Source: Nitrospirota bacterium (GTDB taxonomy: Bacteria; Nitrospirota; Thermodesulfovibrionia; Thermodesulfovibrionales; UBA9159). Taken from it: a stretch of DNA of 64,000 nucleotides. The stretch spans positions 544,001 to 608,000 of the forward strand of contig CAVOUE010000003.1 of assembly GCA_963699545.1 (NCBI GenBank), given 5' to 3'. This document shows positions 45,001-48,000 of this stretch, piece after piece. Numbering within the stretch: position 1 is the first letter of the stretch; each line of letters opens with the position of its first letter. Position numbers: made by a program.

Positions 45001-48000
45001 AAAAAGGTTCTTCTGTTAAAGATGCCTTTTTTCTCGTAAAGACTCGAAATATTAACCGTGGCACATCCGCAAGCATAAATAGAATCCAGGCCATTCTTAT
45101 CCAAGTGACAGGTGTCATATCATTCACCAAACCTGCAATCATATCTGATTATAGTTGATATACTTGGCAATTTTCTCGCCGTTATTAATTTGCTTTGCTT
45201 CGGCATCCGTATAACCTTTGTCTCTAAAGCGTTCCTTTCCGGAAGAAACCCTACATTTATAGCAGAAACGCCATAGTGTACAACACGTTCAGCCAAGACA
45301 AGCAGCCGTGATTTCGAGGACATTAGATTGTCACGAAAGAAAATCACCGGGAGGATATTTTAGGGTATGCCAGCACCCTTCCTCCTAGTCTACACGGTGC
45401 GACAGGATATGCTTCTGATTCTGCACGGCACGACACATTATGCTTCTATGGGTAGTTAAATTCTGGCAATTAGACCGGTGATTTGAATAGTAAAACGACA
45501 GGTTATGATTCCGAAGGGCGACACATTATGCCTCACGGCACAGTTCAGTTCGTTCGTTGGCTTCCCGAAATCCTCAACGGACGTCAACAGGTTTCGTTTT
45601 GGCAGGGAGAAGTATTTCTGAATGCAGGTGATGTTCAGGCTGGAAGCCGGGAGACGGTATAGACCAACGCTCATTCCTGAGCCTTTGGCATAACAGGGAG
45701 ATCCAAACGTCAGGGCAAGACTACAACCTAAACTAATTCAAAAGCCGTAACTGTATTGCCATTTCCTTCTTAAACATTTCGCCAAAAAGAGGGCACAGTT
45801 ATCATAGTTTTCGTTGTTGCAGCGCTTCAATCTTACTAATGCCCCTATCTTGAGAGATGTCACGGATGCTTTGCATACATCTGTCTTGACATCACAGTAC
45901 GGACATGCATCCAAGTCTTCTCTGGCCCTTGTTGCTAGTGCATTCATGGTATCCACCTCCTTTCTTCTTAGCAATTGAATGAAAACCTCCTTGCGGCACT
46001 ATTCGCTATGATGCTTGGCAAGTTCAGTTCAGGTCTTACCCATACCTCCCTGTCTTCGATTTGTTCTTCGTAATCACAAAGAATGTTAGAACACTCATAA
46101 TGAGTTTCCCTGTCCAACATCTCTCTGCCGCACGCCAGGCATTTCATGACACTACCTCCTTATCCGGATTACTGCTGACAGTTTAGTAAAAGGATGTTAC
46201 AGGGTGATGACTGTACCGTGAAGTTTTCATGTCAAACCCCTCGTGAACTATCGAAATTATCGATATATGAGATAACCATAAATAACAACCTGACAAATGA
46301 TGTTATCCTGCCAAAATGAATAGAAAAACAAAATCCTGTGGACATCATCAAGGTGTATAGTCTCATTTCAATATTTCCTTTCGATGTCGATAGAAGCAAC
46401 TCACGTGCCCGAACAAAAAAGCTTCAATTATGGGCAGCTATAGAAGAGAGGTCTTTGCGTCAAATAACATAATTGTTATGTATAAACAATAATGTATTGA
46501 GATACCAGAGAACCGGCAGGGACATTCCCCTACGGGGGTCGCAGCGGCACTCCCGGGTGATCACTGATTATGAACGGGATGGCTAGAGGTAGCGCTGAGT
46601 TTATCTTTGCTCGGTTGGCGAAACATGAGCCTGAGGGGAAGAGTTTCCGGGGACTAAAGAGGTGACTGGTCCGGCTCCTTCTCCGAGAACAGTTTCGTTC
46701 TTTTTATCGCTCCCATCAGATAGTCCTTGAATTTATCAGGAAAGAGCCACTGTATCCCCAGTTTCTCAGCCCAGAGGATCAAGCCCTGATCGGCGGAAAT
46801 CAACAGAGCATCCAGTTCCGCGGCGAGGAGGAGCAGGTCCACATCCTCTTTGCTGTCGATGATCCCCTCCCTCAGCGCCTCCCGGTACTTTCTTCTCAGG
46901 TCCTGGATTATCTCATCCGGTTTTTTCTTTTCAGCACCCCTCACTGCCTTCTCCGCGATCCGCAACCCCTTGTTCACCCTCTCCCGCATGTCTTCTATCA
47001 GTTCATAAAGCAGGAACGCGGGAATCTTAAGTTCATGCCGCTTAGGCGGTTTCTGATGCAGGATAAGGAGGAGGTCCCCGGGGATCCTTTCCTTTTCCAC
47101 AAAATGGAGCAGTTCCTCAAATATGGACGGCGGCATATAAAATTCCAGGATATGGATCTGCGCTGCCAGAAACAGGAAGGTCTCAAGGGCTTCTGTGGGC
47201 GTGCTCCCGAGGCTTGTCCGGACATCAGGATTGACAAAAAGACTTGTGTCCAGGACAACCCTATGGGGCGGCGGGAGAAAAGTGAGAGGAGGCGATGCAC
47301 CACCGTGGTCCTCGAGTTCGTTACGCTCATCGCCCATCCCGATCTGTCCTTTCAGGCCTTGCAGACTCCGTAGAGATTGAACTGATACGTATCCCACTCC
47401 CTGCAGTTGGGGCATCTCCCCGACCAGTCATCTGAGGAATACCCACAGCTGTAGCAACAATACGGAAGCCTGAACGGTTTCTTCATGTCGATCACCTTCT
47501 TAAATTCTTCAACAGCCTTCTCGCATTGCTGCCGTCTCAGATAGATGTTCCCCAGGAGCTGGTGCAGCTCAGGATAGGGAGTGCTGCTCGTGTCAACCCT
47601 CACAAGGGTGTCGTATGCGTCGTCCAGCATCTCAAGCCGGTAAAAGAGTTTCCCCATAAAGAAGCGCAGGGCCTGGTTCTGGGGTTCCTTCAGCGTGCTG
47701 TTCCGGTAGAGGGTGATCAGTCTCCCGGGTTCGCCGAGATTAATAAGGAGATCCTCTATCCTCGCCAGGATTATGTTGGACGATGTCTGTTCGAACCCCC
47801 TCTGGAGAAGAGCGATCGCATCTTCGGATTCTCCTTCCCTGAGCATTGCCTCGGCAAGGCCGAGGTAGGCAGGTACAAAGTCCTTGTCCAGGCGGAGCAC
47901 TGTGGTAAAGGCTTTCTTTGCCTTTTCCGGTGCGGCGTTTTCGATGCCGTATCTGCCCTGTTCGTATTTATATCCTATGAGGTTCTTCTGCTCCCTCTGA

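What a model noticed while it worked through the whole genome (the two positions that open the first line are those of the whole stretch)
46657..47337. RNA-based RNase P lost, HARP kept, yet tRNA leaders stay U-1
The genome has a HARP protein-only RNase P gene (C3:590657-591337) but no detectable P RNA and no rnpA; rpmH is followed directly by yidD and yidC (C4:109288-111275), so the rnpA slot is empty. Its whole family and six others of the order share this state, four families keep the RNA enzyme, two have both. Unlike Aquifex, the tRNA genes keep T at -1 and encoded CCA.
Evidence so far: RF00010, RF00011, RF00373, PF00825 without match; gene order; HARP 204 bits to PF08745 and 222 bits to 7e8j. 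P RNA 0 of 87 in families f1, f3, f5, f6, f9, f10, f11, where HARP is in 85 of 87; reverse in f2, f4, f7, f12. tRNA -1: T 29, A 7, C 7, G 1 of 44; relatives with P RNA T 17, C 8, A 7, G 3 of 35.
(Added by a program. Inside this text positions count along the whole contig: contig position 544,001 is position 1 of the stretch shown here. "Call 12" and the like, gene names such as g00115 and contig names such as C1 are that model's own, and its searches are not shown. The text may have been shortened before it was handed on; [...] marks where a part breaks off. The agent that wrote the report below was given it as the finding of a first reader that could run no searches.)

Follow-up and report, generated by a model that had tools for sequence, protein, structure and literature searches.

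The report
Protein-only RNase P, ribozyme genes deleted
This bacterium trims its tRNAs with a small protein enzyme (HARP) after cleanly deleting the usual RNA-based RNase P, yet its tRNA genes have changed far less than in Aquifex, the one well-studied organism that made the same switch.

Summary
Window 46657-47337 (-) encodes an intact HARP (PF08745 203.5 bits; 222.5 bits to PDB 7e8j). All catalytic and RNA-binding residues described for Aquifex HARP are present.

The genome (Thermodesulfovibrionales, Nitrospirota) has no P RNA and no rnpA. Both syntenic slots are contiguous and closed: rpmH-yidD-yidC, and 37 nt between the genes that flank rnpB in a relative.

Across 150 relatives, seven families have HARP in 85 of 87 genomes and P RNA and rnpA in 0 of 87. 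On an RpoC tree these genomes are not one clade, and the RNP state changed at least 5 times.

tRNA leaders in this genome keep U at -1 (29 of 44). Position -1 is kept more than its neighbours within the family.

- Aquifex also encodes CCA (36 of 44, published), so only the U-1 contrast stands.
- Leaders are not unchanged. G-1 is 0 of 337 in ten HARP-only genomes against 11 of 127 in RNP-only relatives.
- One HARP-only family has mostly A-1.
- Encoded CCA is eroding in several HARP-only lineages.

HARP-only Nitrospirae genera are already in print. The family mosaic, the closed slots and the leader data appear new.

The parts
46657..47337 (-). [quoted passage not shown]
   Evidence: PF08745 scores 203.5 bits. 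PDB HARPs score 146-222 bits. By alignment to chain 8kd9_A, D30, T31, S32, D161, S162, E164, D165 and D183 correspond to Aquifex D7, T8, S9, D138, S139, E141, D142 and D160, and R118, R126, R148, R152 and R156 to R94, R102, R125, R129 and R133 (residue roles from PMC12217051). In 26 of 26 HARPs of the order I found the eight active-site residues and R118 and R126 invariant. The gene is single copy in G000.
47347..47351 (-). Likely ribosome-binding site (AAGGA) for the start at 47337
   Evidence: Read directly from the sequence. It lies between the lapB-like stop codon (47352-47354) and the ATG. The 25-residue N-terminal extension is conserved at protein level in relatives (L128 is 89% identical over residues 1-227).
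47352..48677 (-). LapB-like TPR/zinc-ribbon membrane protein gene, directly upstream in the same orientation
   Evidence: Pfam TPR families plus PF18073 Zn_ribbon_LapB and PF06305. A homologue sits directly upstream of HARP on the same strand in at least 20 of 25 relatives' loci from nine families.
48665..48982 (-). rsfS (ribosomal silencing factor), same strand
   Evidence: PF02410 97 bits.
49066..49740 (-). nadD-like nucleotidyltransferase, same strand
   Evidence: PF01467 82 bits.
25768..25854 (+). tRNA-Leu(CAG), the one HARP substrate gene inside the window: T at -1, A73, encoded CCA
   Evidence: aragorn and RF00005 49.5 bits.

Best explanation
The gene encodes a functional HARP, a roughly 23-kDa PIN_5 metallonuclease. 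It is the organism's only RNase P.

The ancestor of the order Thermodesulfovibrionales most likely carried both HARP and the classical ribonucleoprotein (rnpB RNA plus RnpA). Two families still do. Lineages then kept one enzyme or the other. This genome's family deleted rnpA from between rpmH and yidD, and rnpB from its slot after a CT398-like zinc-ribbon gene. This was one of at least five independent state changes in the order.

HARP finds the cleavage site by measuring from the tRNA elbow and contacts mainly the backbone (published structures). The tRNA genes therefore needed little re-tuning. Leader features that extend the acceptor stem strongly were purged: G at -1 and stable G:C -1/73 pairs. 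U at -1, the ancestral bacterial preference, is still held by selection. There has been no Aquifex-like shift to A-1.

Shown here: gene identity, residue conservation, absence of the RNP genes, closed slots, the distribution, and the leader statistics. Inferred: that HARP is active and sufficient, that the ancestor had both enzymes, and that this order's HARPs tolerate or favour U-1.
For: - HARP identity and intact active site.
- No P RNA or rnpA in G000.
- An order-specific P RNA profile run with nhmmer --max gave a best hit of E = 2.4 in G000. A profile built from five of the same six sequences (family f8) found the left-out P RNA of family f7 at 1e-45 in the same database.
- No RNase P family at E<=1 in either slot locus.
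- rnpA slot closed.
- rnpB slot. In families f7, f2, f12 and f8, rnpB follows tRNA-Met(CAT) and a CT398-like gene. In G007 (f7) a LysR gene lies beyond rnpB, and the spacer holding rnpB is about 840 nt. In G000 the CT398-like and LysR genes are 37 nt apart.
- Complementary distribution over 150 relatives. In the seven RNP-less families HARP is in 85 of 87 genomes, and P RNA and rnpA in 0 of 87. In f2, f4 and f7 HARP is in 0 of 33, and P RNA and rnpA in 31 of 33 each. In f8 HARP is in 15 of 15, P RNA in 12 of 15 and rnpA in 11 of 15.
- RpoC tree of 31 genomes. A clade of all 19 RNP-lacking rows is rejected (AU p = 2e-47). The minimum is 5 changes for the RNP state and 4 for HARP.
- The shared rnpB slot and the shared lapB-HARP adjacency argue for vertical descent of both enzymes.
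- Leaders. U-1 is 29 of 44 here and 20 of 34 in another genus of the family. G-1 is 0 of 337 in ten HARP-only genomes against 11 of 127 RNP-only.
- Within the family, orthologous leaders are identical at -1 in 22 of 31 tRNAs but at only 11-18 of 31 at positions -2 to -10.
Against: - No biochemical or expression data exist for this organism.
- All three HARPs assayed in PMC12439589 prefer A-1. One Aquificales HARP is reported to cleave CCA-bearing substrates about 10-fold slower (PMC12153264 main text). U-1 plus CCA in 40 of 44 genes is therefore what an RNA enzyme, not a HARP, would be expected to favour.
- 9 of 43 pre-tRNAs here combine A-2 with a pairable -1/73. Aquifex and T. indicus HARPs miscleaved E. 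coli pre-tRNAs that have this configuration.
- G000 is 86.9% complete, and its assembly carries frameshifts.
- The tree rests on one gene and has no outgroup.
- tRNA sets of relatives are only the 30 best-scoring loci per genome.
- Related genomes are not independent samples, so the Fisher p value (2e-6) overstates the evidence.
- One RNP-only genome (G016) also has 0 G-1 of 31.
Confidence: 0.8

Rival explanations
1. A highly divergent RNase P RNA, undetectable by Rfam models, still does the job. That would explain why U-1 and CCA persist.
For: U-1 (29 of 44) and encoded CCA (40 of 44) are the features that bacterial P RNA reads (roles as summarised in PMC12439589 Discussion). U-1 appears to be under selection.
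Against: - RF00010, RF00011 and RF00373 gave nothing at E<=10.
- The order-specific nhmmer profile found only noise, while a profile from five of the same six sequences found the left-out control P RNA at 1e-45.
- The ancestral rnpB slot is reduced to 37 nt.
- rnpA is absent in 0 of 87 genomes and its slot is closed.
- U-1 is just as frequent (23 of 32) in Thermodesulfovibrio, where CCA is almost gone (2 of 32). The two features are therefore not jointly maintained.
Confidence: 0.03
2. Assembly artefact: rnpB and rnpA lie in the roughly 13% of the genome that was not assembled.
For: Completeness is 86.9% and contamination 5.1%. dnaE and rpoB are split by frameshifts.
Against: Both genes have conserved positions in relatives, and both positions are present, contiguous and empty in G000. 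All 15 other genomes of the family lack both genes, four of them scored 97-100% complete. The split genes hint that part of the completeness shortfall may be indel errors rather than missing DNA (inference).
Confidence: 0.02
3. HARP here has another role (for example with the Rnl3 RNA ligase, as proposed in PMC12153264), and an unknown enzyme matures tRNA 5' ends.
For: HARP knock-outs are tolerated in archaea, and some bacterial HARPs are inactive in vitro (PMC12153264 main text). Native substrates do not match the published HARP preferences.
Against: HARP is kept in 85 of 87 RNP-less genomes but in only 2 of 47 genomes of f2, f4, f7 and f12. This is the pattern of mutually replaceable enzymes. 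All catalytic and tRNA-binding residues I checked across the order are invariant. The ligase is absent from G000 and found in only 31 of 151 genomes, all from HARP-bearing families, so HARP's retention does not depend on it.
Confidence: 0.05
4. U-1 is evolutionary inertia plus AT-rich leaders, not selection. It says nothing about HARP specificity.
For: Leaders within the family are not fully randomised: identity is 35-58% at -2 to -10. Leaders are T-rich overall, 32-39%.
Against: - T at -1 is about twice the level at neighbouring positions in G000, G023 and G120.
- Between families, positions -2 to -10 are near random (3-12 of 30 identical), yet T-1 stays at 44-72% in nine of ten HARP-only genomes, which span at least five separate state changes.
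- 29 of 44 exceeds a decay expectation of 0.42 (p = 0.002; the 0.42 is my rough estimate).
Confidence: 0.12

Closest known systems
Aquifex aeolicus HARP (Aq880) and the HARP-only Aquificaceae
   Same: Same protein family with the same catalytic and Arg residues. HARP is the sole RNase P, with rnpA and rnpB absent. [quoted passage not shown] CCA is mostly encoded in both (40 of 44 here; 36 of 44 in Aquifex, PMC12217051).
   Different: Aquifex has A-1 in 38 of 44 pre-tRNAs (PMC12439589). This genome has U-1 in 29 of 44 and A-1 in 7 of 44. The protein is about 45% identical by eye to chain 8kd9_A (163.6 bits). It carries a 25-residue N-terminal extension. The gene sits behind a lapB-like gene and lacks the Rnl3 ligase neighbour. 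I could not fetch an Aquificae genome, so the Aquifex figures come from the papers only.
Bacteria with both enzymes (Thermodesulfatator indicus; families f8 and f13 of this order)
   Same: The HARP is orthologous, and the lapB-HARP adjacency is shared with f8. The leader profile is similar: G033 has T 15, A 10, C 4, G 1 of 30.
   Different: Those genomes keep rnpB and, for the most part, rnpA. G000 has deleted both.
Bacterial ribonucleoprotein RNase P (rnpB type A plus RnpA)
   Same: It catalyses the same reaction. The substrate features it prefers (U-1, 3'-CCA) are still common in this genome's tRNA genes.
   Different: No gene for either subunit is present.
Eukaryal PRORP
   Same: A protein-only RNase P with a PIN-like metallonuclease. 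Published work reports an A-1 preference and sensitivity to acceptor-stem extension like that of HARPs (PMC12439589 Discussion).
   Different: A different PIN subgroup and architecture (PPR domain, about 60 kDa, monomer). There is no homology beyond the nuclease fold. Not tested here.

Membership tests
HARP (PIN_5, PF08745) | Significant match to the PIN_5 profile over its whole length | tested here: met
   203.5 bits against a cut-off of 27, profile positions 1-201 of 205.
HARP (PIN_5, PF08745) | Five acidic metal-binding residues plus Thr/Ser/Ser of the active site (Aquifex D7, D138, E141, D142, D160; T8, S9, S139) | tested here: met
   D30, D161, E164, D165, D183, T31, S32 and S162, mapped by alignment to 8kd9_A. 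All are invariant in 26 of 26 HARPs of the order. Residue list from PMC12217051.
HARP (PIN_5, PF08745) | Arginines that bind the tRNA elbow and the cleavage site (Aquifex R94, R102, R125, R129, R133) | tested here: met
   R118, R126, R148, R152 and R156 are Arg in the window protein. R118 and R126 are invariant in 26 of 26. The mapping assumes that the chain numbering is the native numbering.
HARP (PIN_5, PF08745) | Small single-domain protein of about 190-230 aa | tested here: met
   227 aa, or 202 aa without the N-terminal extension.
HARP (PIN_5, PF08745) | Homo-oligomer (tetramer to dodecamer) required for activity | not tested
   No complex prediction was run. Inferred only from 47-55% identity to solved oligomeric HARPs.
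HARP (PIN_5, PF08745) | Cleaves pre-tRNA at +1 (RNase P activity) | not testable with these tools
   Needs an enzyme assay or 5'-end mapping.
Bacterial RNP RNase P | rnpB (P RNA) gene | tested here: not met
   The syntenic slot is 37 nt.
Bacterial RNP RNase P | rnpA gene downstream of rpmH | tested here: not met
   PF00825 gave 0 matches. rpmH and yidD are about 104 nt apart.
Aquifex-type HARP/pre-tRNA coevolution (PMC12439589) | A at -1 in most pre-tRNAs | tested here: not met
   A-1 is 7 of 44 here and 94 of 337 over ten HARP-only genomes. Only f5 reaches 15 of 31.
Aquifex-type HARP/pre-tRNA coevolution (PMC12439589) | No stable G:C pair between -1 and 73 | tested here: inconclusive
   1 of 43 here and 0-2 per HARP-only genome. 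RNP-bearing relatives also have only 0-3. The clearer signal is G-1 at 0 of 337.

The most novel reading that the evidence does not exclude
Thermodesulfovibrionales is a natural replicate experiment in replacing a ribozyme by a protein. An ancestor with both enzymes gave rise to at least five independent losses of the RNP, and several losses of HARP. In these lineages the HARP works on U-1 (and often CCA-bearing) pre-tRNAs. If so, the A-1 'coevolution' seen in Aquifex is a lineage peculiarity rather than a requirement of HARP. The general requirement would be only the removal of G-1 and of strong stem extensions. This predicts that HARPs of this order have a different or relaxed -1 specificity compared with the three HARPs assayed so far.
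Probability: 0.4. Interest if true: 0.7.

Novelty: new member of a known kind. Interest (0 to 1): 0.55.

Why it matters
The field currently describes the Aquificaceae as the only verified organisms that live on HARP alone (PMC12439589 Introduction). It reads Aquifex's A-1 leaders as coevolution with the enzyme.

This genome belongs to a much larger HARP-only assemblage: seven GTDB families, including the cultured genus Thermodesulfovibrio. Sister lineages in the same order keep both enzymes or only the ribozyme. That offers several independent transitions to compare.

It also offers a direct test of whether A-1 is needed. In these genomes it is not enriched, while G-1 is absent. The question 'what must change in the substrates when a protein replaces the RNase P ribozyme?' becomes testable with cultured strains and recombinant enzymes.

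Tried and rejected
1. Aquificae control. I tried to find an Aquifex-cluster HARP among the representatives by PDB look-ups of P0012, P0013, P0014, P0015 and P0016. None was close to the Aquifex chains. No Aquificae genome was reached, so my -1 pipeline was not run on Aquifex.

2. HARP gene tree (40 rows). Families are recovered, but deep nodes are unresolved and the outgroup branches are long. It cannot decide between vertical descent and transfer. The long f10 branch is most simply fast evolution, because its nearest non-genus relatives are other HARPs of the order.

3. The look-up of sequencing runs: none was listed, and no RNA holder was listed.

5. Raw aragorn output put 12 of 32 Thermodesulfovibrio tRNAs one base out of register, calling 8-bp acceptor stems through U-1:A73. 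This first suggested A-1 enrichment. I corrected the register and rejected that reading.

6. The simple idea 'CCA decays only after P RNA loss' is rejected. RNP-only G016 encodes CCA in only 13 of 31 genes.

7. No structure or complex prediction was run, because sequence identity to solved HARPs made it unnecessary.

8. Literature searches for prior tRNA-leader or family-level analysis in this order found none. Nickel et al. 2017 and the PDF supplements (Figs S10 and S11 of PMC12439589; methods of PMC12153264) were not seen and may bear on this.
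Full report
**1. The gene**

Window 46654-47415 (-) is a 253-aa open frame. The stated 46657-47337 is the reading from the second Met. I favour that start. It lies 14 nt after the stop of the upstream lapB-like gene and has AAGGA in between. The 25-residue N-terminal extension is conserved in relatives.

The protein matches PF08745 (PIN_5) at 203.5 bits over profile positions 1-201 of 205. It matches all seven distinct HARP sequences in the PDB at 146-222 bits.

Aligned to the 190-residue chain 8kd9_A, D30, T31, S32, D161, S162, E164, D165 and D183 fall on the Aquifex active-site residues D7, T8, S9, D138, S139, E141, D142 and D160. R118, R126, R148, R152 and R156 fall on the tRNA-binding arginines R94, R102, R125, R129 and R133 (residue list from passages of PMC12217051; mapping). 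The eight active-site residues and R118 and R126 are invariant in 26 of 26 HARPs of the order that I aligned. The gene is single copy in the genome.

It follows nadD, rsfS and a LapB-like TPR gene on the same strand. A LapB-like homologue sits directly upstream of HARP in at least 20 of 25 relatives' loci.

**2. The RNA enzyme is really gone**

The whole assembly is G000: 3.04 Mb, 13 contigs, 86.9% complete, 5.1% contamination.

- RF00010, RF00011, RF00373 and PF00825 gave no match at E<=10, while the named control genomes rang.
- I built a profile from six P RNAs of the same order and ran nhmmer --max. The best hit in G000 was E = 2.4. A profile of the five family-f8 sequences among the same six found the left-out f7 P RNA at 1e-45 in a database of the same size.
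- rnpA slot: rpmH (PF00468), yidD (PF01809) and yidC (PF02096) are contiguous, with about 104 nt between rpmH and yidD.
- rnpB slot, which is new here. In families f7, f2, f12 and f8, rnpB lies downstream of tRNA-Met(CAT) and a CT398-like coiled-coil/zinc-ribbon gene. In G007 (f7) a LysR gene follows about 840 nt after that gene, with rnpB in between. In G000 the same tRNA-Met, CT398-like gene (PF02591, PF24481) and LysR gene (74% identical to G007's) are present on contig C11, and the two genes are 37 nt apart.
- A permissive Rfam scan of both slot loci found only the tRNA.

Incompleteness of the assembly therefore does not explain the absence.

**3. Distribution in the order**

Record titles of the closest HARP loci place the genome in Thermodesulfovibrionales, Nitrospirota. 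Family f10 is the genus Thermodesulfovibrio. The table covers 150 sampled relatives, without G000.

| Family | HARP | P RNA | RnpA |
|---|---|---|---|
| f1 | 14/15 | 0/15 | 0/15 |
| f3 | 11/11 | 0/11 | 0/11 |
| f5 | 12/12 | 0/12 | 0/12 |
| f6 | 15/15 | 0/15 | 0/15 |
| f9 | 5/6 | 0/6 | 0/6 |
| f10 | 14/14 | 0/14 | 0/14 |
| f11 | 14/14 | 0/14 | 0/14 |
| f2 | 0/15 | 14/15 | 14/15 |
| f4 | 0/15 | 15/15 | 15/15 |
| f7 | 0/3 | 2/3 | 2/3 |
| f12 | 2/14 | 12/14 | 13/14 |
| f8 | 15/15 | 12/15 | 11/15 |
| f13 | 1/1 | 1/1 | 1/1 |

The first seven families sum to HARP 85 of 87 and P RNA and RnpA 0 of 87.

Within the mixed families there is further sorting. In f8, genus g19 (G008, G044) has HARP only. In f12, G080 has both enzymes and G120 has HARP only. 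The P RNA scan of 151 genomes used Infernal's stricter filters, as the tool states.

**4. Not one loss**

I built an RpoC tree of 31 genomes: two to four per family, one for f13 (1358 columns, LG+G4, midpoint root, single gene).

- f9 groups with f8 + (f7 + f4), with support 100/98 for the latter clade.
- f6 + f10 form a pair (100/100).
- A third clade (100/100) holds f1, f2, f3 + f5, f11, f12 and f13 in an unresolved fan.

Holding the 19 RNP-lacking rows together costs 321 log-likelihood units (AU p = 2e-47). The minimum is 5 changes for the RNP state and 4 for HARP. G064, which has neither enzyme, was coded RNP-absent and HARP-unknown.

rnpB occupies the same slot in f2, f7, f8 and f12. HARP keeps its lapB neighbour across families. 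I therefore read the changes as losses from an ancestor that had both enzymes. This is an inference. There is no outgroup, and the HARP tree is unresolved at depth.

**5. tRNA leaders**

*Method.* I ran aragorn on the whole of G000, which gave 45 tRNAs and one tmRNA. For each relative I used the loci of the 30 best RF00005 matches, out of 32-47 matches per genome. As a result, long-arm tRNAs are under-sampled. Duplicates and tRNAs within 12 nt of a locus end were dropped. tRNA-Sec was left out. tRNA-His was counted upstream of its encoded G-1. Calls with 8-bp acceptor stems were shifted by one base after inspection.

*HARP-only genomes*:

| Genome | Family | n | A | C | G | T | CCA encoded |
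|---|---|---|---|---|---|---|---|
| G000 | f1 | 44 | 7 | 8 | 0 | 29 | 40/44 |
| G042 | f1 | 34 | 9 | 5 | 0 | 20 | 30/34 |
| G006 | f6 | 32 | 9 | 4 | 0 | 19 | 20/32 |
| G023 | f10 | 32 | 5 | 4 | 0 | 23 | 2/32 |
| G002 | f3 | 34 | 10 | 9 | 0 | 15 | 21/34 |
| G011 | f11 | 34 | 9 | 6 | 0 | 19 | 32/34 |
| G004 | f5 | 31 | 15 | 10 | 0 | 6 | 12/31 |
| G009 | f9 | 33 | 11 | 4 | 0 | 18 | 28/33 |
| G120 | f12 | 31 | 7 | 4 | 0 | 20 | 16/31 |
| G008 | f8 | 32 | 12 | 5 | 0 | 15 | 32/32 |
| Pooled | | 337 | 94 | 59 | 0 | 184 | 233/337 |

*RNP-only genomes*:

| Genome | Family | n | A | C | G | T | CCA encoded |
|---|---|---|---|---|---|---|---|
| G007 | f7 | 30 | 4 | 4 | 6 | 16 | 30/30 |
| G016 | f4 | 31 | 11 | 5 | 0 | 15 | 13/31 |
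| G001 | f2 | 32 | 3 | 4 | 3 | 22 | 32/32 |
| G012 | f12 | 34 | 6 | 4 | 2 | 22 | 31/34 |
| Pooled | | 127 | 24 | 17 | 11 | 75 | 106/127 |

*Both enzymes:* G033 (f8), n = 30, A 10, C 4, G 1, T 15, CCA 30/30.

*What this shows:*

- U-1 remains the commonest leader end in nine of ten HARP-only genomes. In G000 it is position-specific: 66% against 32-39% at -2 to -6.
- G-1 has vanished from every HARP-only genome. For the first eight genomes, 0 of 274 against 11 of 127 gives Fisher p = 2e-6. Relatives are not independent, and G016 also has none.
- In the two youngest contrasts, the G-1 leaders of tRNA-Cys (G012) and tRNA-Ala(CGC) (G033) are A and C in their HARP-only relatives G120 and G008.
- With discriminator A73, where U-1 would make a Watson-Crick pair, U-1 is 51 of 135 in eight HARP-only genomes against 38 of 65 in RNP-only genomes.
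- G at -2 is 42 of 274 against 36 of 127.
- Family f5 alone has moved to A-1, like Aquifex.

*Selection or inertia?* Between G000 and G042, the deepest split I sampled in f1, 31 orthologous leaders are identical at -1 in 22 cases. At -2 to -10 they are identical in 11-18 cases (mean 46%). Against other families, positions -2 to -10 are near random (3-12 of 30), while -1 stays T-rich. I conclude that U-1 is being maintained. What maintains it is not known.

**6. Against the literature**

- PMC6380272 (passages) already says that a few genera of Aquificae and Nitrospirae encode only HARP, judged by RnpA.
- PMC12153264 (main text parts 1-2, and Table S1 passages) lists Thermodesulfovibrionales among HARP-positive orders. 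It also reports that a Hydrogenobacter HARP cleaves CCA-bearing substrates about 10-fold slower.
- PMC12439589 (abstract, whole Discussion, passages) reports A-1 in 38 of 44 Aquifex pre-tRNAs, an A-1 preference of three HARPs, and poor handling of G:C-extended stems. It states that Aquificaceae are the only verified HARP-only organisms.
- PMC12217051 (passages) reports that 36 of 44 Aquifex tRNA genes encode CCA. It also finds that HARP contacts the backbone rather than bases, and that the leader was not resolved in the structures.

Three full-text searches found no analysis of tRNA leaders, rnpB synteny or family-level sorting in this order. PDF supplements and Nickel et al. 2017 were not seen.

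**7. Tension that remains**

By the published in-vitro preferences, this genome's substrates are poor HARP substrates. They have U-1 and CCA, and 9 of 43 combine A-2 with a pairable -1/73, the configuration that Aquifex and T. indicus HARPs miscleaved in E. coli. Either HARPs of this order differ in specificity, or the published preferences matter little in vivo. This is the part worth an experiment.

**8. Verdict**

This is a genuine HARP-only bacterium, with the loss of the ribozyme documented at RNA, protein and synteny level. It is a new member of a known kind. The added value lies in the repeated sorting of the two enzymes within one order, and in a substrate set that did not follow the Aquifex route.

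Noticed in passing
G000 contig C10:158075-158226 (outside the window): tRNA-Lys(UUU) and tRNA-Glu(UUC) are separated by a single T. Lys has no encoded CCA, so its discriminator A is followed by T and then G+1 of Glu. RNP-bearing relatives have Lys-ACCA plus a 3-5 nt spacer. Other HARP-only genomes have lost the CCA and have 2-8 nt between A73 and Glu.
   Followed up: partly
L001 6488-6808 (G000 C4, dnaE) and L419 4470-8403 (G000 C12, rpoB): dnaE is split: a PHP-domain ORF of 106 aa, then the rest in another frame. rpoB is in two ORFs (160 aa and 1101 aa). This suggests indel errors in the assembly, which may partly explain the 86.9% completeness score.
   Followed up: partly
window 45000-46650 and the whole of G000: There is no Rnl3-type RNA ligase next to HARP or anywhere in G000 (tblastn; PF18330). 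In G006 (f6), G008 (f8) and G120 (f12) the ligase (PF09414 + PF18330) lies convergent to HARP. In the order it occurs in 31 of 151 genomes, all of them in HARP-bearing families. It is absent from f2, f4 and f7 (0 of 33) and from f10 and f11 (0 of 28). This is far below the 89% co-occurrence reported in PMC12153264.
   Followed up: yes
window 45738-46147 (-): Two small Cys-rich ORFs (78 aa and 59 aa, zinc-ribbon-like CxxC pairs) lie just downstream of HARP and have no Pfam match. The 1.5 kb downstream of HARP has no larger ORF.
   Followed up: no
L418 (G000 C11:34500-39000) and loci L002, L005, L007, L364, L389: rnpB has a conserved position after tRNA-Met(CAT) and a CT398/HP0958-like zinc-ribbon gene in four families. 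The tRNA-Met in G000's emptied slot is one of the four tRNA genes here without encoded CCA.
   Followed up: partly
L419 213-4466 (rpoC of G000), L420, L421: RpoC of G000, G005 (f1) and G014 (f2) aligned in one piece of 1418 aa. All other relatives' matches broke at about residues 519-564, which suggests an insertion of about 45 residues shared by a few genomes. G055 carries a second, divergent rpoC-like match (47-57% identity) on another contig.
   Followed up: no
G033 (f8) and G064 (f1), relatives: G033 has a strong P RNA match (5e-104) but no rnpA match, although scored 99% complete. G064 (95% complete, 240 contigs) shows neither HARP nor RNP genes. These are probably assembly gaps.
   Followed up: no
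G000 C9:215527-215602: aragorn calls a tRNA with a 4-base anticodon (tttg). By its acceptor stem it looks like tRNA-Gln(UUG) with an 8-nt anticodon loop call.
   Followed up: no
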